Positions 10,518-48,716 of a stretch of DNA of 64,000 nt are shown here, one piece after another. The first letter of the stretch is position 1; each line of letters opens with the position of its first letter. Below the pieces are notes generated by a model, which was not told where the DNA came from, searched no databases, and saw nothing but the letters and a program-made list of their open reading frames with translations. This DNA is from Naegleria gruberi (lineage: Eukaryota): assembly GCA_000004985.1 (NCBI GenBank), contig GG738921.1; one strand, written 5' to 3'. The translations under genes were made by a program, and so were the position numbers.

Positions 10518-11486
10518 ATGTTCAAGATCTCATTCGTCGAGTTTTCAACACCTCAAACAATTAAATCAGCCTTATCTTGTGAGGTCAAGAATAAGAACAA
10601 CAATTCTCCAAAGAAACGAGGACGACCACCAAAGAAGAAACAACAGGAAAGAGATTCAAAAGTTGTCACATCCTCAGAATCAATGAAAGATGCTCAAAAG
10701 AATGATGTAAATCATCCTGCTGTGATCTTGACCGAATGTAAGAAGAGGAAATTGGAGAATGTTTGTGAGCAATACAGAACTCCTCCATTGGTGGTTTCTC
10801 CTCCTTCACTGCATGTTGAGGAGGATTCTAATACTCAAGCAACAACAACAACATTAGCAAGGAATAGAAAAATTATAAGAACCTCAATATCGCTTAAAGA
10901 AATATTGAATTATAATGGACAACAANNNNNNNNNNNNNNNNNNNNNNNNNNNNNNNNNNNNNNNNNNNNNNNNNNAAAGATGTACATTAACAAATTCTCT
11001 ATTGTTGACTTTACTCCTGCTCAGAATATTCAAACAAAAACTACTGATTTACCAAAGAAGAGAGGTAGACCACCTAAGAATTCACCACATGCAAACAAAT
11101 CAATGTTTATTAGGTCAACTGAGACAATGCCAATGAGGTATGAATTGACGAATAGAATGACAGACCAATTCAAGAAGGATAAACGAAGAAGAAGGGAAAA
11201 GAAAGCATGTAATAGTCCAAACACATCTAATTGCTCCACATCTAGTAGTACATCATCTTTGACTATTGTGCAAGAATTGAATAATTGTTTAGTTTCAGAC
11301 ACATTAGTTTCGTCTCTTCCAACAACGCATGCATCCACTCCTCAATCTAATATCACTACCACTAACGACAATACAACAACACATCTAGAATCCAATCTTA
11401 TCACCTCCAACAATAACAACACATCCAATTATAAACCTCCAAGAAAGATAAGATATTCGATATCCATCCAAGAATTATTAAATTGA
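10518..11486 (+). CDS. AT-hook (GRP) protein with two similar modules, one on each side of the assembly gap 10926-10975. These may be one gene or two tandem genes. Module 2 starts at ATG 10979.
   Basis: Module 1 reads MFKISFVEFSTP...SPKKRGRPPKKK...KIIRTSISLKEILN. Module 2 reads MYINKFSIVDFTP...LPKKRGRPPKNSP...KIRYSISIQELLN*. Both carry an AT-hook core RGRP. Confidence 0.55.
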   Translation: MFKISFVEFSTPQTIKSALSCEVKNKNNNSPKKRGRPPKKKQQERDSKVVTSSESMKDAQKNDVNHPAVILTECKKRKLENVCEQYRTPPLVVSPPSLHVEEDSNTQATTTTLARNRKIIRTSISLKEILNYNGQQXXXXXXXXXXXXXXXXXKMYINKFSIVDFTPAQNIQTKTTDLPKKRGRPPKNSPHANKSMFIRSTETMPMRYELTNRMTDQFKKDKRRRREKKACNSPNTSNCSTSSSTSSLTIVQELNNCLVSDTLVSSLPTTHASTPQSNITTTNDNTTTHLESNLITSNNNNTSNYKPPRKIRYSISIQELLN

Positions 11487-26900: not shown

Positions 26901-29900
26901 TTATGTTTGTAAAAAGTTCAATAGTGATTCCAAAGATTCTGCAACTTGAATAAATTCTGGTCTTTGATTAGGTTCATTATTCCAACATTCTTTCATAATT
27001 TCGATATAATCCGAAAGAGATAGTTCTAATTTTGAAATTCCATATTTATCAATTTCCTTTTTTGAAATATTATTTTCGATCCATGCTTGATCTGTAGTAA
27101 TAATTCTTGGTCTATGTCCTTTGATGACTTCCATCAATATGGAAAATACTGTATTGGTGTCTGACAATTCATCCGAAAATGGGACCATTTCGTATAATAA
27201 TTCCCACAAAATAATTCCAAAAGAGTAAACATCAATTTTAGTAGTAGGACCTCTATGATGATTAGAAAGTAACTCCTATTAGAAATTATATTTAAATTAT
27301 TCAGAAATGTTATCAAAAACTTACAGGTGCCTTTTAAAATAGTTTAAATTAGAATTCGAATAAAACTTACAATATCTTTACATCAAAATTAAGAAACTGA
27401 TCTAATTTCGTATTACTTACATAATAGAGTTCCAACATTTGTGGTCATTGTTGCAGAATTCCCATTAACAATCTTACTTAATCCAAAATCTCCCACTTTT
27501 GCATTCATATTCTTGTCGAGTAGAATATTTGCACATTTCAAATCTCTGTGAATTATCTTGTTTGGCCTAATTGAATGTAAATAGACCATTCCTTTACATA
27601 CATCATTCAGAATATTTAATTTTGTAACGTAACTCAATTTCTTTTTTCCTATTTTTGATTCGTAAATTGCTCCATCTAAGGCACCATTCGAAAGATATTC
27701 CACCTTAATATTCAATTCATTAAGTACATCAATTGTATTCAAATACTTACAATCATATATTTTGATTCAGTGGATAGAGAAATTCCATAACAACTAACAA
27801 TTGAAGGATGTCGTAGGGAGCTCATCAATAAGGCCTCCCTTTCAAATTCTTCATCATCAGTGTCTGTCTTGAATTGCTTAATGGCAACATCTGTTTTGTT
27901 CCAAAGTCCTTTATAAACCACACCCGACGCTCCTTCACCAATCTTTTTCACGATAGTAATATCTGAAATTGGAATAATGTACCTTTCAGGAGTTTCATTA
28001 TTCAAACTATTCTCAAGTAAGGGCAAGTTTTCGATACCATTTCCAAATACAAAGTATTTGTTTTTGAATTGATCTTCAATTCTCTTCTCCGCCTTTTCTT
28101 GTTTTCTCAATTTGAACAACTTTTTCATTACATAAACGATTACAAAAATTGTAAAAGAAAAAATGATGGTGAGTGAGATAGTTCCCAAAACTGCTGATGG
28201 AATAATTATCTCAAATGGAATGGATTGACAGTAATAATACTTGCCTCCTCCCAACACCAATGAAAATCCTGCTGGACATTTCATTACTTCCACATTAACA
28301 AACGAGGTAATAACATCCAAGTCTGTAATTGAAAATCTCAACTCAAAATGGTCAGAATTGAAATCCTTATCAACGAGTAGGTATTGTAAATTGTTGAGCA
28401 TGATATATCCTTCTCCGACTTGATAATCCTGCTTTTGTAGAATGATATTCTTCACAGAAGAAACTACCAAAAGTGGGGAGTCACTAGAAAGCTTTGAAGT
28501 GCTTTGATTATATTGATCATAAATGAATAATTTGAAATCAAGTGGTTGGCCAGGATACACTTGAATGGATTTGCCTTCTGCAACTCTGAATTGACCATCC
28601 TGTCCTCTAAATTCAATTCTTTGGCTCACCAATTCTGAACCGATATCATTTCCATAATAGTAAGCTCTGTTTTCACCAATCATTCGATATTTCGTATTTG
28701 GATTTAAGGAACTCGATGTGGATGATTTGTAGATACAACCTCCAACTTGAAATGCAATATTATCCTGACAATAACTGTCAGTTGTGGCAATACCACTTAA
28801 TAGATTGAGGAGATAGATGGCTCCTCCCTTCTTTGCCTCATTTCCAATAAATGAACAGTTTGAGAGAGTTAGGGAATTACTGATCTCAATTCTAATGGCA
28901 CCTCCAAATTCTGCAACATTATTCGAAAAGAAACAATTGAAAACTATTAAGCTATTGCCATTGTAAAAAAGAGGTGAACCACCCATATTGTTTCTGAACT
29001 GACACGTCCTTACCATTGAAGCTGTTTGCTCAGATGTCATGATTGAAACAAAAGAGGAATCTTTCAGAACTCTATTGGAAATGAATTTTGATTCGTCTAT
29101 TACTATTGGAGCTACAATTGTATTAATATCCCAATAGATATCCTTAATAGATAGTATTGTTCCAGTATTGTTATTAAATGTACAATTAAATACTTGAACA
29201 GTTTTACCTTTTTGAATGGAAATCAAATTGGCAAATATATTGTTAGTTACATTCCAGTTTCGAATAGAGATTTCGGTAGAACCAATCAAGCTCAGATAGG
29301 ATTCGGATATATCACCAATAACTCGATCAATAATACTAATTCCATCCAAAACAACTTGAAAAACTATCATAATCTGAATAGTTGGAATGGAGCTAGCCTC
29401 TGTAATATTCAACACGTTTCCAGCATTGAAAGCACATAAAGAACTAGCTGTCCAATGACAATTGTTAATTTTCACAGTTCCAAAAAAATCAATATTTAGA
29501 ATTGCATTCAATAATTTAGAATTATCTATTTGAATAGACTCTGTCTTACTCAATCTTACTTTCGTTTCAGAAATGGTCGATTCAAATACTCGAAATGTCT
29601 CCACCATTGCATTTTTCAATCCAAAGTTGTTGAAATTTGACTGATTAATAAGTAAATTTTTCACATTTAATTCACTCATTACCAACAAATCACTATGGCA
29701 TTGATCAAAACTGAGAATTTCCAATTTCCTATCCAAACTCAATGCTCTACCAACTCCTCCATTCACAAAATGAAATCTCTCAATTACACTCTGCCTATTA
29801 ACGAGCCACTCACATCCAGGATATATAAAACCATTAGTATCCATTCCAATCCAACTCAATTCAAATCTATTGGTATATTCGGAAAAGTCAAACAATTGTC

Positions 29901-30279
29901 CACATTCATAACTTCCCTTCATCATTATTTTCATTTGAAATTTGAATAATTTTGATGAATTGCCAATAGGAAACATGGAATATAATTCATCGTTAGCAGC
30001 AGTGATGACTTGATGAAATACTTGACATGGTAGATTCACATCAGTGCATGTATTATTCTTCGGTTGTTGTGATTGGTTGGAGTCAATGTAATAGGTACGT
30101 TCAATACTCTGCTGTTGTGCTCCGACAAGAAGAACAACTAGGTGATGTATTAAAATTAATGACACGATGAAGATTTGTGCAATTGTTCGAGTAGACAAAT
30201 GGTGTGGCAGTAGTTGTGGTAGTTTCATTCTTTTTTGTTGGAAGATATTGTCCAAGGTTTTGTGTGTTACTGTTATCAT
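26901..30279 (-). CDS. Receptor-like protein kinase. It has a signal/TM N-terminus, a large ectodomain with parallel beta-helix-type GGAI/FxxN repeats, a single TM and a TKL-type kinase. Proposed structure is complement(join(26901..27275,27325..27330,27371..27375,27421..27703,27751..30279)), 1065 aa.
   Basis: Ectodomain repeats read FNCFFSNNVAEFGGAIRIE and SFIGNEAKKGGAIYLLN. TM reads IIIPSAVLGTISLTIIFSFTIFVIVYVM. Kinase motifs are IGEGASGVVYKG..VAIKQFK, HRDLKCANILLD, VGDFGLSK, GTLL-YI-AP-ELLSNH and DVYSFGIILWEL. The exon lengths sum to 3198 nt. Confidence 0.65.
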
Positions 30280-34425: not shown

Positions 34426-36612
34426 ATGGGACAAAATCCTTCTTCACCCTCTCAGAATAATAGCAATCATCTCGTTGCTCATAATCATCATCATCATCAA
34501 CAGCAGCAACAACAACCCCATCATCATCACCATCATCAACATCAACAGTGTGATGTCTTACCGAATTCAACTCATCTAATAGCAGACATTTCAGAGGAAG
34601 AACTTACAACAGATTCAACCTCGGCAACAACACCAACATCATCAACCATGACAGCTTCTCTCTCATCAAATCTTATATCGAGGAGAAGATCCTCTCTCCC
34701 CCATAAATTGAATGACCATAGTACAATGAGTGGAGAACATGATGAAACGAAACGATCCCTTGGTAAAGTATTCAAAAGTGCCACACATTTAAACGCTCAT
34801 GAAGATATTGAGAATTATTCATTGGGAAAACAATTGTGGGAGGTTGAAAAAGCAAGTAATAGTTGTAGTAGTGATGAGAGTCAGCAGCAGCAGCAGCAAC
34901 AAGACTCCCATCACGAGAGTCCAGCAATGATAATATGCCAGACTCCAAGAAATACGAAAATTTAAATATCAAATCGAAACGAAACAATACTCTACCACTA
35001 ACAATAACTGCTAAGGAGAATGAATCACCAGTTCATCGCTCGAATACTCATCCTCATCTTTCCTCTCGCAATTTTCAAGATCACCAACAACAACCTGTAA
35101 CATATTCCAATAATCTCAATACTCCAAATTCTGCCACCTACAAAACTTCCCAGAAATTAATCAAACTAAAGCCATTTTCTACACCAGATTTGAAAAGGAG
35201 TGCACTTTTAAATAGTAGGAACAATCAAGAGGAAGTAAGTGTATTTAATTTGATTTCTAATAGTTTCGAATAATTTCGAATAGATGAATGGAGTAGATAC
35301 AGATACTTTAACACCTACAGTGAGTGACGATATTTCATTTAATTCATCATCTGTCTATTCTCCACCACAACATGCCAATTCTTTCAGAAATAGTGTCCTC
35401 TCAACAACAAGTAGTGCCAGTGGAGGATCCAACAATAATCACAATAATAGTCTCATCAATTCTCTTTTCCCATCTCTTCCGGTTGACAGGACTAAAATGA
35501 CTGATGAGGAATTTACTGTCTACAAGGAGGTTGTCAGTAAACCAGTTTATGAAAAAATTCTGAAAAGTAAACCTCTGACAGCTAAATGTGGATTCAATGA
35601 AGAGTATATGAAAGAGTTTGCTTTTGAACTTTCTGATGAGGAAGAATTGAAAAATACCTATCTCACAACAGACTGGGTTGAAACAGCAAAACTCCTCCAA
35701 AGAACAAGAAGTATCGACGAGACCACTCTCAATCTTGACCCAAAAACTCTACTCGAACCAATAATTAATACAGTTTCTAAACGTGATTCTCTCTCCTCTA
35801 TTGAAGAGGAAGTGAAGAAAATTGTAATGGAAGAACAAGAGGTTCTCAAACAAGAAATCAAAATCAAGCTAATAATTACTGAAATTGCAAATGCACCTAC
35901 AAAAACTCTGAGACAATTTCTTTCTCCTGTTTTGCACAAGATGAATGTTCTACCAGAGATTGGTTGGTTTCACTCTGCTATTCTCGTAGGGAAGTGGAGA
36001 CTTGACTTTAATGATAGTAGTGTAGTAATACCGAGAAAGCTTGTTAGTCAGGCTGCTGTTATTACTACAGACATTGAAACAATTAGTACATTGGAGGATC
36101 TCAATAGAGTGATTGATGGCATGTCGAGATGCATTTGTAAATGGAATAGAAATATAACGTATAAACAAACTGGAGGAGATAGAATTAACACAGGGAACTG
36201 TCAGGATTTTGTGGAAGATTTGTTGGATAGTATTGGAGTTAAAATGAATCTTTCTGGAAGTATGAAGAAATTTGTAAAACGTTTGAGAAAGACAGGAAAG
36301 TGTTCCCTTGTCTTTGAAATGGATAAGAGATTCAGAGAATATTTTGGAATGGAATCTAAACGGGTGAAGTTCAAATCACACGAACAATTAGATTTGTTTG
36401 TGAGAAAATTACTTGACAAGTGTCCAAATTTTGCTCAAGAATTCAATGATGAATGGATACTCTTACAAAGTTTTGATAGAACCTACTGGTTGAAACACAT
36501 TACGTACACTCACATTGAAGAGTATAAACCATGCAAGGTCATTAGAGATAATAAGGGAGTTTCCGATTGTCCATTTCACGAACCCGAGTTCACTAACTTG
36601 CTTAAAGACTAG
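34426..36612 (+). CDS. Protein with an N-terminal MGQNPSS start (a possible N-myristoylation signal) and a C-terminal LRAT/H-REV107-like (NlpC/P60 superfamily) domain. It has one clear intron at 35235..35283 and one unresolved frame discontinuity near 34930.
   Basis: It reads MGQNPSSPSQ...HNHHHHQQQQQQPHHHHHHQHQQ, joins ...NNQEE|gtaagt..cgaatag|MNGVDTD, and carries the C-terminal H-box WFHSAILVGKW and NCEHF-like box GNCQDFVEDLL. Confidence 0.5.
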
Positions 36613-45840: not shown

Positions 45841-48716
45841 ATGGCAAACTCCTTTTCTTTCATCTTGTTTGCCATCTTGGTTTTGAATTGGGCCTTGTTA
45901 GCCAATTGTAATTTGACTTTTTCACAACAAACATTCAACACTCTCCTCAACTCAACCCAAACTTCAACTCTATCACTGACAATGTACATGGGAGGTGGAA
46001 CAACCATCAAAAACAGTAACAACAGCACATGTGGAATGTCTGTGGATAATCCATGTACAAACTTTAATCAATTATTATTAACTTTTAATTGGACACTCTT
46101 TAGTCAATTTGAGAATTTCACAAAAGCAACATCGGCAGGTGAAAGAAACGTTCACTTGAAGATACTGATACTTCCAGATGGCAGTATTTTCTGTCCTATC
46201 AATCCAGTTAATTTATCTCCTTCAATGAATTATCATTTAGAATTTACGAAACTAGTCGAATCATCAACAATAACACCCATCTTGACCTGCCTCAACACAC
46301 AAGATGGAAATGGCATTTCCATTCCTNNNNNNNNNNNNNNNNNNNNNNNNNNNNNNNNNNNNNNNNNNNNNNNNNNNNNNNNNNNNNNNNNNNNNNNNNN
46401 NNNNNNNNNNNNNNNNNNNNNNNNNNNNNNNNNNNNNNNNNNNNNNNNNNNNNNNNNNNNNNNNNNNNNNNNNNNNNNNNNNNNNNNNNNNNNNNNNNNN
46501 NNNNNNNNNNNNNNNNNNNNNNNNNNNNNNNNNNNNNNNNNNNNNNNNNNNNNNNNNNNNNNNNNNNNNNNNNNNNNNNNNNNNNNNNNNNNNNNNNNNN
46601 NNNNNNNNNNNNNNNNNNNNNNNNNNNNNNNNNNNNNNNNNNNNNNNNNNNNNNNNNNNNNNNNNNNNNNNNNNNNNNNNNNNNNNNNNNNNNNNNNNNN
46701 NNNNNNNNNNNNNNNNNNNNNNNNNNNNNNNNNNNNNNNNNNNNNNNNNNNNNNNNNNNNNNNNNNNNNNNNNNNNNNNNNNNNNNNNNNNNNNNNNNNN
46801 NNNNNNNNNNNNNNNNNNNNNNNNNNNNNNNNNNNNNNNNNNNNNNNNNNNNNNNNNNNNNNNNNNNNNNNNNNNNNNNNNNNNNNNNNNNNNNNNNNNN
46901 NNNNNNNNNNNNNNNNNNNNNNNNNNNNNNNNNNNNNNNNNNNNNNNNNNNNNNNNNNNNNNNNNNNNNNNNNNNNNNNNNNNNNNNNNNNNNNNNNNNN
47001 NNNNNNNNNNNNNNNNNNNNNNNNNNNNNNNNNNNNNNNNNNNNNNNNNNNNNNNNNNNNNNNNNNNNNNNNNNNNNNNNNNNNNNNNNNNNNNNNNNNN
47101 NNNNNNNNNNNNNNNNNNNNNNNNNNNNNNNNNNNNNNNNNNNNNNNNNNNNNNNNNNNNNNNNNNNNNNNNNNNNNNNNNNNNNNNNNNNNNNNNNNNN
47201 NNNNNNNNNNNNNNNNNNNNNNNNNNNNNNNNNNNNNNNNNNNNNNNNNNNNNNNNNNNNNNNNNNNNNNNNNNNNNNNNNNNNNNNNNNNNNNNNNNNN
47301 NNNNNNNNNNNNNNNNNNNNNNNNNNNNNNNNNNNNNNNNNNNNNNNNNNNNNNNNNNNNNNNNNNNNNNNNNNNNNNNNNNNNNNNNNNNNNNNNNNNN
47401 NNNNNNNNNNNNNNNNNNNNNNNNNNNNNNNNNNNNNNNNNNNNNNNNNNNNNNNNNNNNNNNNNNNNNNNNNNNNNNNNNNNNNNNNNNNNNNNNNNNN
47501 NNNNNNNNNNNNNNNNNNNNTTGGAATAGCATTAGGTTTTGGAATATTCTTTGTGTGGAAAATTGTAAAGAAATTGAGAAAACTGAAAAGTAAGGAGAAG
47601 GCAGAGAAACAAATTGAAGAAAAACTTTTAGACAAGCGACTTATTTTCAATATGAATGACGAGGAGGATGAATATTATGAGGGCTCCACACCAAATATTG
47701 AAAGAAGCAAATCATCTTATGGGAAAGTATCTGAAAAGGAGTTAGTTTCTTCATTGATTGACAGTGAAAAGAAGAAATCAAAACATTCTTTCAGTTTTTC
47801 ATCCTCTTACATTATTCCAATTGAAGACATATCAATTATTAAAAAGATTGGAGAAGGAGGCGCAGCTAATGTATATTATGGTACATGGACCAATATTAAA
47901 GTGGCTATCAAGTCACTCAAGATTGACAGTTTTGATGATGATTTTGAGAATGAAGCAGCCATCCTCAGTTTAATTAGACATCCAAACATTCTGACATTCT
48001 ATGGAGTATGTTTGACTGATAAGAGTCGATATATTGTGACTGAATATATGGAAAATGGCTCTCTAGACAGGTATATATTTTTGAATAAGAACAGAGCATT
48101 GAATATTGACCTATTCAAATCAAATATTGGAATTTTGTGTGGAATTGTGGATGGTATGCAATATTTACACTCTCTTAAACCTTCAATTATTCACAGAGAT
48201 TTGAAATCGAGTAATATATTGTTGGACGAAAGAAATACTCCAAAAGTTTCTGATTTTGGTCTTGTTAAAGTATTGGGAAACAATACAATCAGTCAAATTA
48301 CAAAAGGAATTGGTACAGTGTATTATTTAGCTCCAGAAACATTCATTGCTGAACATCAAATTGAAAATAAGGAAGAGGCAACCAAGTTGGACATTTACAG
48401 TTTTGCAATAATCATGTGGGAATTATTCTTTCGAATGAGTCCTTATCATCATGTGAAAAATCCATTCAAAGTGCCTCAAATGGTTGTCAATGGAGAAAGA
48501 CCTCAAATTCCCTTCAATATTGAAAATGATACGGAAATCAAAGAATGGCTTTCAATTCAAGCATTGGAAATTTCATCGTCTGACAATTCTTTCATTAATG
48601 GTATTAAGAAATACTTCTCACTCATTCTCCAATGTTGGAATCAAAATCCATTACAAAGACCTACATTCCTGACAATTAGAAGAGAATTGGATGAGATTTA
48701 CAATCTAATCGGTTGA
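45841..48716 (+). CDS. Receptor-like protein kinase, a paralog of the 26901-30279 gene. Its ectodomain is mostly lost in the 1.2-kb assembly gap.
   Basis: Signal reads MANSFSFILFAILVLNWALLANC. After the gap, TM reads GIALGFGIFFVWKIV. Kinase motifs are IGEGGAANVYYGTWTNIKVAIKSLK, HRDLKSSNILLDE, VSDFGLVKV, GTVYYLAPE and DIYSFAIIMWELF. Confidence 0.65.
46327..47520. other. Assembly gap (run of N). There are smaller gaps at 716-755 and 10926-10975.
   Basis: Uninterrupted n characters. ORFs translated as X-runs across them are artefacts. Confidence 1.

What the first reader, a model, noticed from the sequence alone, without database searches (positions are those of the whole stretch)
27276..27420. 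Receptor-kinase activation segment is encoded across two tandem micro-exons (ATATT, 5 nt; GCACCT, 6 nt) separated by three 40-49-nt introns
Read straight through, the minus strand gives ...GTLLCK* (stop). A single intron between any pair of the GT/AG sites gives stops or frameshifts. Only the path CTATTAT|gtaagtaat...gtaaag|ATATT|gtaagtttt...ttaaaag|GCACCT|gtaagtttt...ctaatag|GAGTTACTT restores GTLL-YI-AP-ELLSNHHRGPTTKIDVYSFGIILWEL, the universally conserved APE motif and subdomain IX of protein kinases. The whole proposed CDS is then a multiple of three (3198 nt). The three introns all begin gtaagt, and introns 1 and 2 resemble each other, which suggests serial tandem duplication of a donor-containing segment, a known mechanism of intron gain. 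Micro-exons this small, in series, are rare and easy for gene predictors to miss.
Basis: seen in the sequence. Interest (0 to 1): 0.7.

Follow-up and report, generated by a model that had tools for sequence, protein, structure and literature searches.

The report
Tandem micro-exons in Naegleria kinase gene
A receptor-like protein kinase gene of the amoeba Naegleria gruberi very probably encodes its essential 'APE' motif on two tiny exons (5 and 6 bases) between three ~45-base introns. This layout is already used by the public gene model and is one more case of a known phenomenon.

Summary
The sequence is exactly as described. On the minus strand, exon 2 ends at 27421. It is followed by three GTAAGT...AG introns (45, 40 and 49 nt) separated by ATATT (27375-27371) and GCACCT (27330-27325). 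Splicing them gives a 3198-nt CDS reading GTLLYIAPELL.

This path is not the only open one: 129 GT-AG paths stay open, six of them with a single intron. It is the only one that gives Y-I-A-P-E, and it scores best against Pfam kinase models.

Intron sizes and splice sites match the other introns in the window. An independent 98%-identical metagenome assembly has the same layout. Homologs have single introns at exactly the positions of intron 2 (N. lovaniensis) and intron 3 (metagenome contig L003).

The window is Naegleria gruberi NEG-M, not a dictyostelid. The public model XP_002669923.1 already reads ...GTLLYIAPELLSN..., so predictors did not miss it. Introns 1 and 2 are not alike, so the tandem-duplication idea has no support. 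A second 6-nt exon, in a C2-domain gene at 8630-8625, lies in the same window.

I found no transcript evidence. RNA-seq from PRJEB23822 would settle the question. Verdict: real, ordinary in kind, already annotated.

The parts
26901..30279 (-). Whole CDS of the receptor-like Ser/Thr (TKL-type) kinase, NAEGRDRAFT_75112. It is 3198 nt if it starts at 30279. The public model starts at aa 119 of this reading.
27751..30279 (-). Exon 1. It encodes an N-terminal hydrophobic segment (aa 36-54), an extracellular region of about 650 aa with weak Chlam_PMP/beta-helix matches, a transmembrane segment (aa ~691-715), and the kinase N-lobe up to ...SKYMI.
27704..27750 (-). Intron 0: 47 nt, GTAAGT...TTAAG, phase 0, between KYMI and VEYL. 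A homolog on L045 has a 43-nt intron at the same position.
27421..27703 (-). Exon 2 (283 nt): VEYLSNG...HRDLKCAN...DFGLSK...NVGTLL plus the first base of the Tyr codon.
27376..27420 (-). Intron 1: 45 nt, GTAAGTAAT...GTAAAG, phase 1 inside the Tyr codon. This position is seen only in N. gruberi so far (the window and L001/L046).
27371..27375 (-). Micro-exon 1, ATATT (5 nt). It completes Tyr and encodes Ile. It is needed to restore the reading frame.
27331..27370 (-). Intron 2: 40 nt, GTAAGTTTT...TAAAAG, phase 0, between Ile and Ala. The N. lovaniensis homolog has a 61-nt intron at the same position (L047 2338-2398). The only two differences from strain contig L001 within the 145 nt lie in this intron.
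27325..27330 (-). Micro-exon 2, GCACCT (6 nt): the Ala-Pro of the APE motif. Skipping it keeps the frame but costs 10-17 bits against the Pfam kinase models.
27276..27324 (-). Intron 3: 49 nt, GTAAGTTTTT...CTAATAG, phase 0, between Pro and Glu. The closest homolog on L003 has a 46-nt intron at the same position. The acceptor is a TAGGAG (NAGNAG-type) site, so use of the second AG would delete the Glu.
26901..27275 (-). Last exon (375 nt including the TAA stop): ELLSNHHRGPTTKIDVYSFGIILWEL...CWNNEPNQRPEF...LQT*.

Best explanation
This is a functional Naegleria gruberi gene for a single-pass receptor-like protein kinase. The end of its activation segment (Y-I-A-P of GTLLYIAPE) is encoded on two constitutive micro-exons of 5 and 6 nt, which lie between three ordinary short GT-AG introns.

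Inferred mechanism: Naegleria introns are about 40-50 nt, so each is recognised as a unit across the intron (intron definition). Exon length therefore matters little. With only 5-6 nt between an acceptor and the next donor, the three introns are probably removed one after another, most simply 5' to 3' during transcription. Each micro-exon would then already be joined to the long upstream exon when the next donor is used.

The layout most likely reflects closely spaced intron positions in this kinase family. Homologs each keep only one or none of these introns. It does not look like a recent duplication.
For: Shown by the sequence and by computation:
- The sequence and frame are as described, and the CDS is 3198 nt without a stop.
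- Of 129 open GT-AG paths, only this one yields GTLLYIAPELL.
- It scores 184.9 bits (PK_Tyr_Ser-Thr) and 181.8 bits (Pkinase). The next-best paths reach 175 and 165 bits, and the single-intron paths score 163-169 and 140-152.
- Fifteen relatives read GTL[LFY]Y[IMLC]AP(E) at this place.
- All kinase motifs are present: GEGASG, VAIK, HRDLKCAN, DFG, APE, DVYSFG and CW..RP.
- The three introns (45, 40 and 49 nt, GTAAGT...AG) match the other introns in the window, which are mostly 41-49 nt with GTAAGT donors and often end in AAAG or ATAG.
- Chance is excluded.
- An independent assembly of a 98%-identical strain (L001, and Logan contig L046) has the identical layout. Its only two differences in the 145 nt lie inside intron 2.
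- Across the whole CDS the two strains differ by 18 synonymous and 21 nonsynonymous changes, with no indel and no stop. In the kinase domain the counts are 8 synonymous to 4 nonsynonymous.
- The intron 3 position (AP|E, phase 0) is shared by the closest homolog on L003.
- The intron 2 position (Y[IM]|AP, phase 0) is shared by the N. lovaniensis homolog on L047.
- The intron 0 position is shared by the homolog on L045.
- The public model XP_002669923.1 encodes the same junction peptide.
- A second 6-nt exon between 45- and 43-nt GTAAGT introns restores the SDPYV strand of a C2 domain at 8630-8625 (78.2 versus 65.8 bits). The genome therefore appears to tolerate such exons.
Against: - I obtained no transcript evidence. 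The spliced junction sequence was not found in JGI metagenome or metatranscriptome contigs. Exact look-ups of the spliced proteins found nothing.
- The public model may itself come from a homology-guided predictor, so it is not independent proof.
- The intron 1 position has no counterpart in any homolog examined.
- The strain comparison is too close (2 differences in 145 nt) to show selection on the 11 coding bases.
- Sequential splicing order is inference only.
Confidence: 0.85

Rival explanations
1. The micro-exons are a homology-driven modelling artefact. Under this reading the real mRNA skips one or both of them or retains an intron, and the locus encodes a truncated or APE-less pseudokinase, or is a decaying pseudogene.
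For: No transcript was found. Six single-intron paths and many multi-intron paths keep the frame open. Homology-guided predictors are known to place tiny exons to rescue motifs (my own knowledge).
Against: The alternative paths need weak donors (GTTAAT, GTTGGA) and introns of 160-195 nt, which are atypical here. Three perfect GTAAGT donors within 100 nt, and 11 bases that code exactly for the family consensus, are not expected by chance. The gene has no stop or indel in two strains and shows a deficit of nonsynonymous change in the kinase domain, including downstream of the micro-exons. The positions of introns 2 and 3 recur in homologs.
Confidence: 0.07
2. The micro-exons are real but alternatively used. 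In-frame skipping of the 6-nt exon would give GTLLYI-ELL, and use of the second AG of the TAGGAG acceptor would give YIAP-LLS. Either would produce a kinase-impaired isoform as a regulatory switch.
For: Both alternatives keep the frame. The acceptor of intron 3 is a NAGNAG-type site. Exon skipping has been detected in N. gruberi RNA-seq in general (PMC6142364).
Against: There is no evidence of any isoform. All donors are equally strong GTAAGT. Under intron definition, skipping a micro-exon would mean treating about 95 nt as one intron, which is longer than almost all introns in the window.
Confidence: 0.08
3. One reading: introns 1 and 2 arose recently by serial tandem duplication of a donor-containing segment.
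For: Introns 2 and 3 share GTAAGTTTT and have a weak overall similarity (normalised score 0.35, shuffle p=0.04).
Against: Introns 1 and 2 are not similar (p=0.84, rank 66 of 120). An unrelated intron at +35235 is more like intron 3 (0.47) than intron 2 is. The positions of introns 2 and 3 are each present singly in homologs of other species. This points to old or recurrent positions rather than a recent local duplication.
Confidence: 0.05
4. Assembly artefact: a spurious local duplication in the draft scaffold.
For: The scaffold is a draft with N gaps.
Against: An independent metagenome assembly and its Logan re-assembly (L001 and L046, run ERR1078381) have the same 145-nt layout.
Confidence: 0.01

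Closest known systems
Coding micro-exons of 15 nt or less in plants, including an RT-PCR-validated adjacent pair (5 nt + 12 nt) in rice Os08t0562700 and 1-nt exons in APC11/VPS55 (PMC8831610)
   Same: These are constitutive, very small coding exons between canonical GT-AG introns that encode conserved protein motifs. Some occur in tandem. Homologs differ by loss of the flanking introns, so the micro-exon is merged into a larger exon.
   Different: The lineage is different (Heterolobosea). The flanking introns here are only 40-49 nt. Both exons are 6 nt or less and adjacent. Here the annotation did not miss them. No transcript validation has been done.
Micro-exons in fungi with short introns, such as the 1-nt exon of Fusarium CYP621A (PMC12940212, abstract only)
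   Same: The genome has short introns that are probably recognised across the intron, and a tiny exon is required to assemble a conserved protein.
   Different: That is a single exon, not a tandem pair, and a different gene family.
Neuronal alternative micro-exons of animals (3-27 nt, dependent on SRRM4/PRP-40; abstracts listed)
   Same: Exon size is similar, and the location in surface loops or motifs of signalling proteins is similar.
   Different: Those exons are alternatively spliced, lie between long introns, and need dedicated enhancer factors. Here they are probably constitutive and need no special factor (inference).
Naegleria receptor-like TKL kinases with PMP/beta-helix ectodomains (N. 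lovaniensis C9374_013523 plus its upstream gene; metagenome loci L043, L045, L003; window paralog at 45841-48716)
   Same: The architecture is the same: ectodomain, transmembrane segment, a juxtamembrane region rich in K/E, then a kinase with GTLxYxAPE. Kinase-domain identity is 41-53%.
   Different: The relatives have no intron or only one intron in the APE region. Only the N. gruberi gene has three.

Membership tests
Spliceosomal coding micro-exon (15 nt or less) | The exon is bounded by a canonical acceptor AG upstream and a donor GT downstream, within introns of normal size for the genome. | tested here: met
   AAAG|ATATT|GTAAGT and AAAG|GCACCT|GTAAGT. The introns are 45, 40 and 49 nt, against 41-49 nt for most other introns in the window.
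Spliceosomal coding micro-exon (15 nt or less) | Inclusion restores the frame and a conserved peptide. | tested here: met
   Only this path gives GTLLYIAPELL. It gains 10-22 bits (PK_Tyr_Ser-Thr) and 17-42 bits (Pkinase) over the other open paths that were scored. Relatives read GTLxYxAPE.
Spliceosomal coding micro-exon (15 nt or less) | The flanking intron positions are conserved in homologs. | tested here: inconclusive
   The intron 2 position is shared with the N. lovaniensis homolog and the intron 3 position with L003. The intron 1 position was found in no homolog. No homolog with both micro-exons was found.
Spliceosomal coding micro-exon (15 nt or less) | Spliced transcripts contain the micro-exon. 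| not testable with these tools
   The junction search found 0 hits and exact protein look-ups were negative. RNA-seq exists (PRJEB23822) but cannot be mapped here.
Eukaryotic protein kinase, catalytically competent (TKL-like) | Pfam Pkinase / PK_Tyr_Ser-Thr match above the gathering score, with G-loop, VAIK Lys, HRD, DFG and APE present. | tested here: met
   179.7 and 177 bits against cut-offs of 23.1 and 31.7. Motifs lie at aa 781, 798, 895, 915 and 940.
Receptor-like (single-pass transmembrane) kinase | An N-terminal signal or anchor, an extracellular domain, and one transmembrane helix before the kinase. | tested here: met
   Hydrophobic peaks lie at aa 36-54 and 691-715. The ectodomain has weak Chlam_PMP (22.0 bits, cut-off 20.6) and Beta_helix (20.7 bits, below the 25.9 cut-off) matches. 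The N-terminus and start codon are uncertain.
Intron gain by tandem duplication | The new intron and its neighbour are recognisably duplicated sequence. | tested here: not met
   Intron 1 versus intron 2 is below the shuffle mean. Intron 2 versus intron 3 is weak and is exceeded by an unrelated intron.
Introner / transposon-derived intron family | Many near-identical intron copies exist elsewhere in the genome, often with target-site duplications. | tested here: inconclusive
   Among 16 introns in the window no pair is near-identical (best normalised score 0.47). No target-site duplication is visible at the junctions. The whole genome was not searched.

The most novel reading that the evidence does not exclude
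The APE-coding stretch of this Naegleria receptor-kinase family is a cluster of intron positions, with three phases or sites within 11 coding bases. Different family members keep different single introns. So either the ancestor carried an extremely intron-dense activation segment that has been lost piecemeal, or introns have been gained repeatedly at adjacent sites. Together with the second 6-nt exon in the same 64 kb, this would suggest that exons of 6 nt or less are a regular, unstudied feature of Naegleria genes. They would be tolerated because 40-50-nt introns are defined across the intron.
Probability: 0.35. Interest if true: 0.4.

Novelty: already known. Interest (0 to 1): 0.25.

Why it matters
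The practical value is small. The analysis confirms that the deposited model XP_002669923.1 is right across the activation segment and probably wrong at its N-terminus, where it lacks the hydrophobic leader.

The locus is a clean test case for micro-exon-aware read mapping in a protist with very short introns. If RNA-seq confirms it, three introns within 11 coding bases would be a useful example for two things. One is how intron-defined splicing copes with 5-6-nt exons. The other is intron loss and gain in a fast-evolving kinase family.

It does not open a new question.

Tried and rejected
1. Transcript evidence. An exact search for the 25-nt triple-junction sequence in JGI metagenome contigs gave 0 hits. 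Exact look-ups of four spliced or unspliced protein forms found none in the collection. A search with the C-terminal 154 aa found only genomic ORF fragments (P0199) and an ortholog fragment (P0200).

2. Ortholog with the same layout. P0200 is 64% identical to the last exon, but the DNA of its 1077-nt contig could not be fetched. Its ORF layout (1-285, 290-532, 678-989) leaves at least 80 nt before the expected start of the last exon, and I could not reconcile this with any simple model. P0332 is 79% identical to exon 2, but its contig stops at ...NVGT, just short of the region.

3. The search for related loci on metagenome contigs returned only distant kinases, at most 43% identical.

4. DNA for the N. 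gruberi paralogs P0092 and P0094, and the record for P0077, could not be retrieved.

5. The tandem-duplication and intron-similarity idea was tested and rejected.

6. The dictyostelid origin was rejected.

7. The '13.5% GC' stretch at 46-48 kb looked odd but is only a run of N.

8. Literature searches for Naegleria micro-exons and for PRJEB11402 found nothing relevant. The N. gruberi genome paper is not held.

9. The search did not list P0001 or P0078, although both share long exact stretches with the query. Negative results from that tool are therefore weak.

Full report
**1. The observation**

- ...GGA ACT CTA TTA T | GTAAGTAATACG...GATGTAAAG (45 nt, 27420-27376)
- ATATT (27375-27371)
- GTAAGTTTTATTCG...TTTTAAAAG (40 nt, 27370-27331)
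- GCACCT (27330-27325)
- GTAAGTTTTTGATAAC...TTCTAATAG (49 nt, 27324-27276)
- GAG TTA CTT...

Read-through ends in ...GTLLCK*. There is one further 47-nt intron at 27750-27704. With it, the five exons give a 3198-nt, 1065-aa open reading frame.

**2. Is the proposed path the only one, and is it more than chance?**

I enumerated every GT...AG combination with up to four introns of at least 20 nt between 27470 and 27230. Of these, 129 distinct paths stay open to the stop at 26901, including six with a single intron.

Only one path produces GTLLYIAPELLSN, however. Against Pfam it scores 184.9 bits (PK_Tyr_Ser-Thr) and 181.8 bits (Pkinase). The alternatives score as follows:
- Skipping the 6-nt exon: 174.9 and 164.9 bits.
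- The best path with a different donor: 175.1 and 160.4 bits.
- The single-intron paths: 163-169 and 140-152 bits.

Shuffling the 145 nt gave a minimal GT-AG path coding Y-x-[A/S]-P in only 4 of 300,000 trials. GTAAGT occurs only 15 times on this strand in 64 kb, and three of those copies lie within 100 nt here.

**3. Do the introns look like introns of this genome?**

A scan for GTAAGT donors that join long open frames recovered 13 other introns in the window. Most are 41-49 nt. Their donors are GTAAGT (the scan selected for this donor), and their acceptors often end in AAAG or ATAG. The three proposed introns are indistinguishable from these in size and ends.

**4. Organism and existing annotation**

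Three neighbouring ORFs are exact matches to Naegleria gruberi proteins (EFC37131, EFC37134 and EFC37184) on a 207-kb scaffold. N. gruberi belongs to Heterolobosea within Discoba, so this is not a dictyostelid.

The kinase itself is EFC37179.1 / XP_002669923.1 (NAEGRDRAFT_75112, 947 aa). That deposited protein reads ...TMTTNVGTLLYIAPELLSNHHRGPTTKIDVY.... Given, this can only come from the same two micro-exons. The layout has therefore been in the public model all along.

The upstream frame holds a strongly hydrophobic segment (aa 36-54). A prokaryote-style gene call on the sister contig starts at M18. Residues 20-53 carry 6 nonsynonymous and 0 synonymous differences between strains. The true start remains open.

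**5. Independent assembly and selection**

A metagenome contig (L001, ENA ERZ929261, run ERR1078381) and its Logan re-assembly (L046) are 98% identical to the window and have the same three-intron layout. The only two differences in the 145 nt fall inside intron 2. This rules out an assembly artefact.

Across the CDS the two strains differ at 39 sites: 18 synonymous and 21 nonsynonymous. There is no indel and no stop. In the kinase domain the counts are 8 synonymous to 4 nonsynonymous. Nonsynonymous sites outnumber synonymous ones roughly three to one, so I infer purifying selection, and the locus does not look like a pseudogene. The comparison is too close to say anything about the 11 micro-exon bases themselves.

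**6. Relatives and intron positions**

Fifteen relatives, 40-54% identical to the query in the alignment, all read GTL[LFY]Y[IMLC]AP(E) at this point. Most are uninterrupted ORFs through the motif. This includes a paralogous receptor kinase in the same window (47553-48716, reading GIGTVYYLAPETF) and the homologs on L043, L044 and L045.

Three comparisons are informative:
- **L003.** This is the closest homolog with a full kinase domain (53-55% identical, from JGI 3300002220). It reads TAT ATT GCA CCA | gtaagtagc...ttcacag | GAA ATT. That is a single 46-nt intron exactly between Pro and Glu, phase 0, which is the position of intron 3.
- **N. lovaniensis C9374_013523 (L047).** It reads TTT TAT ATG | gtaggtaca...acaaaag | GCA CCT GAA. 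That is a single 61-nt intron between Met and Ala, phase 0, which is the position of intron 2.
- **L045.** It has a 43-nt intron at NYMV|VEYL, the position of intron 0.

Each side of the 6-nt exon is therefore an intron position seen independently in another species. Intron 1, which lies in phase 1 inside the Tyr codon, has no counterpart so far.

The window gene is about equally distant (50-53%) from L003, L043 and L045, and these three are 60-63% identical to one another. Sharing different introns with different members fits ancestral introns followed by differential loss. Parallel gain is not excluded, and I did not build a reliable tree.

**7. The tandem-duplication idea**

I scored global alignments of all 16 introns of the window against each other and against shuffles:
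- Introns 1 and 2: normalised score 0.10, rank 66 of 120, p=0.84.
- Introns 1 and 3: 0.04.
- Introns 2 and 3: 0.35 (p=0.04). An unrelated intron at +35235 scores 0.47 with intron 3.

The resemblance is what AT-rich short introns with common end motifs give. There is no sign of duplication.

**8. A second case in the same window**

While checking for close pairs of GTAAGT I found a C2-domain gene on the minus strand with this layout:
- exon 8794-8747
- 50-nt intron
- 21-nt exon 8696-8676 (ADLNGFS)
- 45-nt intron
- 6-nt exon 8630-8625 (GATCCT, coding DP)
- 43-nt intron
- exon 8581-... (YVIVQ...)

The spliced product reads NLEAADLNGFSDPYVIVQ. It scores 78.2 bits against Pfam C2, compared with 65.8 bits without the 6-nt exon. 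Tiny exons between ~45-nt introns are therefore not peculiar to the kinase.

**9. Mechanism**

What is shown: the splice signals, the frame, the homology, and the positional conservation of two of the three introns.

What is inferred: with introns of 40-50 nt the spliceosome pairs the donor and acceptor across each intron, so exon size is not limiting. Only 5-6 nt separate an acceptor from the next donor. Neighbouring introns probably cannot be engaged at once and are removed in sequence. The TAGGAG acceptor of intron 3 and the in-frame 6-nt exon would allow APE-less isoforms, but nothing suggests that they are made.

**10. Comparison with what is known**

Coding micro-exons of 1-15 nt are well documented in plants. 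They include validated adjacent pairs, and there are homologs in which intron loss has merged the micro-exon into a larger exon (PMC8831610). Fungi with short introns also have them (PMC12940212). This locus is an instance of that kind in a heterolobosean.

I found no paper on micro-exons in Naegleria. N. gruberi RNA-seq is public under PRJEB23822 (PMC6142364) and would settle the matter.

**11. Verdict**

The splicing interpretation is very probably right (0.85), but it lacks transcript proof and is already embodied in the public gene model. The taxonomic guess, the duplication scenario and the 'missed by predictors' remark are wrong. Interest is low to moderate. The most that could come of it is a small study of intron-position clustering and micro-exon tolerance in Naegleria.

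Noticed in passing
window 8794-8360, minus strand: A C2-domain gene has a 21-nt exon (8696-8676) and a 6-nt micro-exon GATCCT (8630-8625) between 50-, 45- and 43-nt introns. The spliced product restores the conserved ...GFSDPYVIV... strand. Pfam C2 scores 78.2 bits with the 6-nt exon and 65.8 without.
   Followed up: yes
window 45841-48716, plus strand: A paralogous receptor-like kinase has a signal peptide, an ectodomain, then the kinase. It is interrupted by an assembly gap. Its kinase domain is one uninterrupted ORF reading GIGTVYYLAPETF, with no intron in the APE region.
   Followed up: partly
window about 46330-47530 and about 10923-10973: These are runs of N (scaffold gaps). The first explains the apparent 13.5% GC block and the spurious long ORFs in several frames.
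   Followed up: yes
A gene call on the sister contig starts at M18. Residues 20-53 carry 6 nonsynonymous and 0 synonymous differences between the two strains. The true start codon is unresolved.
   Followed up: partly
L047 1-1409 and 1501-2875 (N. lovaniensis PYSW02000006.1): The N. lovaniensis annotation has an 806-aa Chlam_PMP-type protein that ends 92 nt before a 414-aa kinase starting in the juxtamembrane region. This is probably one receptor kinase split into two gene models. The kinase also has an intron after HRDL.
   Followed up: no
introns at window +35235-35283, -12085-12043, -27370-27331 and -27324-27276: Several short introns share a TTCGAATAATT-like or TTCTGAATAATTT-like stretch. 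It could be a branch-site or pyrimidine-tract consensus, or a trace of common origin. It is not significant among the 16 introns examined.
   Followed up: partly
whole window, both strands: GTAAGT occurs 11 times on the plus strand and 15 times on the minus strand. My rough hand estimate from base composition is about 22 per strand. Roughly two-thirds of the copies (17 of 26) are the inferred intron donors, so the hexamer seems to be avoided elsewhere.
   Followed up: no
JGI 3300059473, 1077-nt contig encoding P0200 (no DNA obtained): This is the likely ortholog of the kinase's last exon (64% identical). The ORFs lie at 1-285, 290-532 and 678-989 in three different frames. The spacing does not fit a single short intron at APE and could not be reconciled with any simple exon model.
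   Followed up: partly
L043 2049-2088: A homologous receptor kinase from another metagenome has a 38-nt intron inside the glycine loop (IGEG|TNG, phase 1), which the N. gruberi gene lacks. Intron positions in this family are very variable.
   Followed up: partly
tool behaviour: The word-indexed protein search with the 301-aa kinase domain did not list P0001 or P0078, although both contain 90-96 residues identical or nearly identical to the query. Negative results from that search are unreliable.
   Followed up: no
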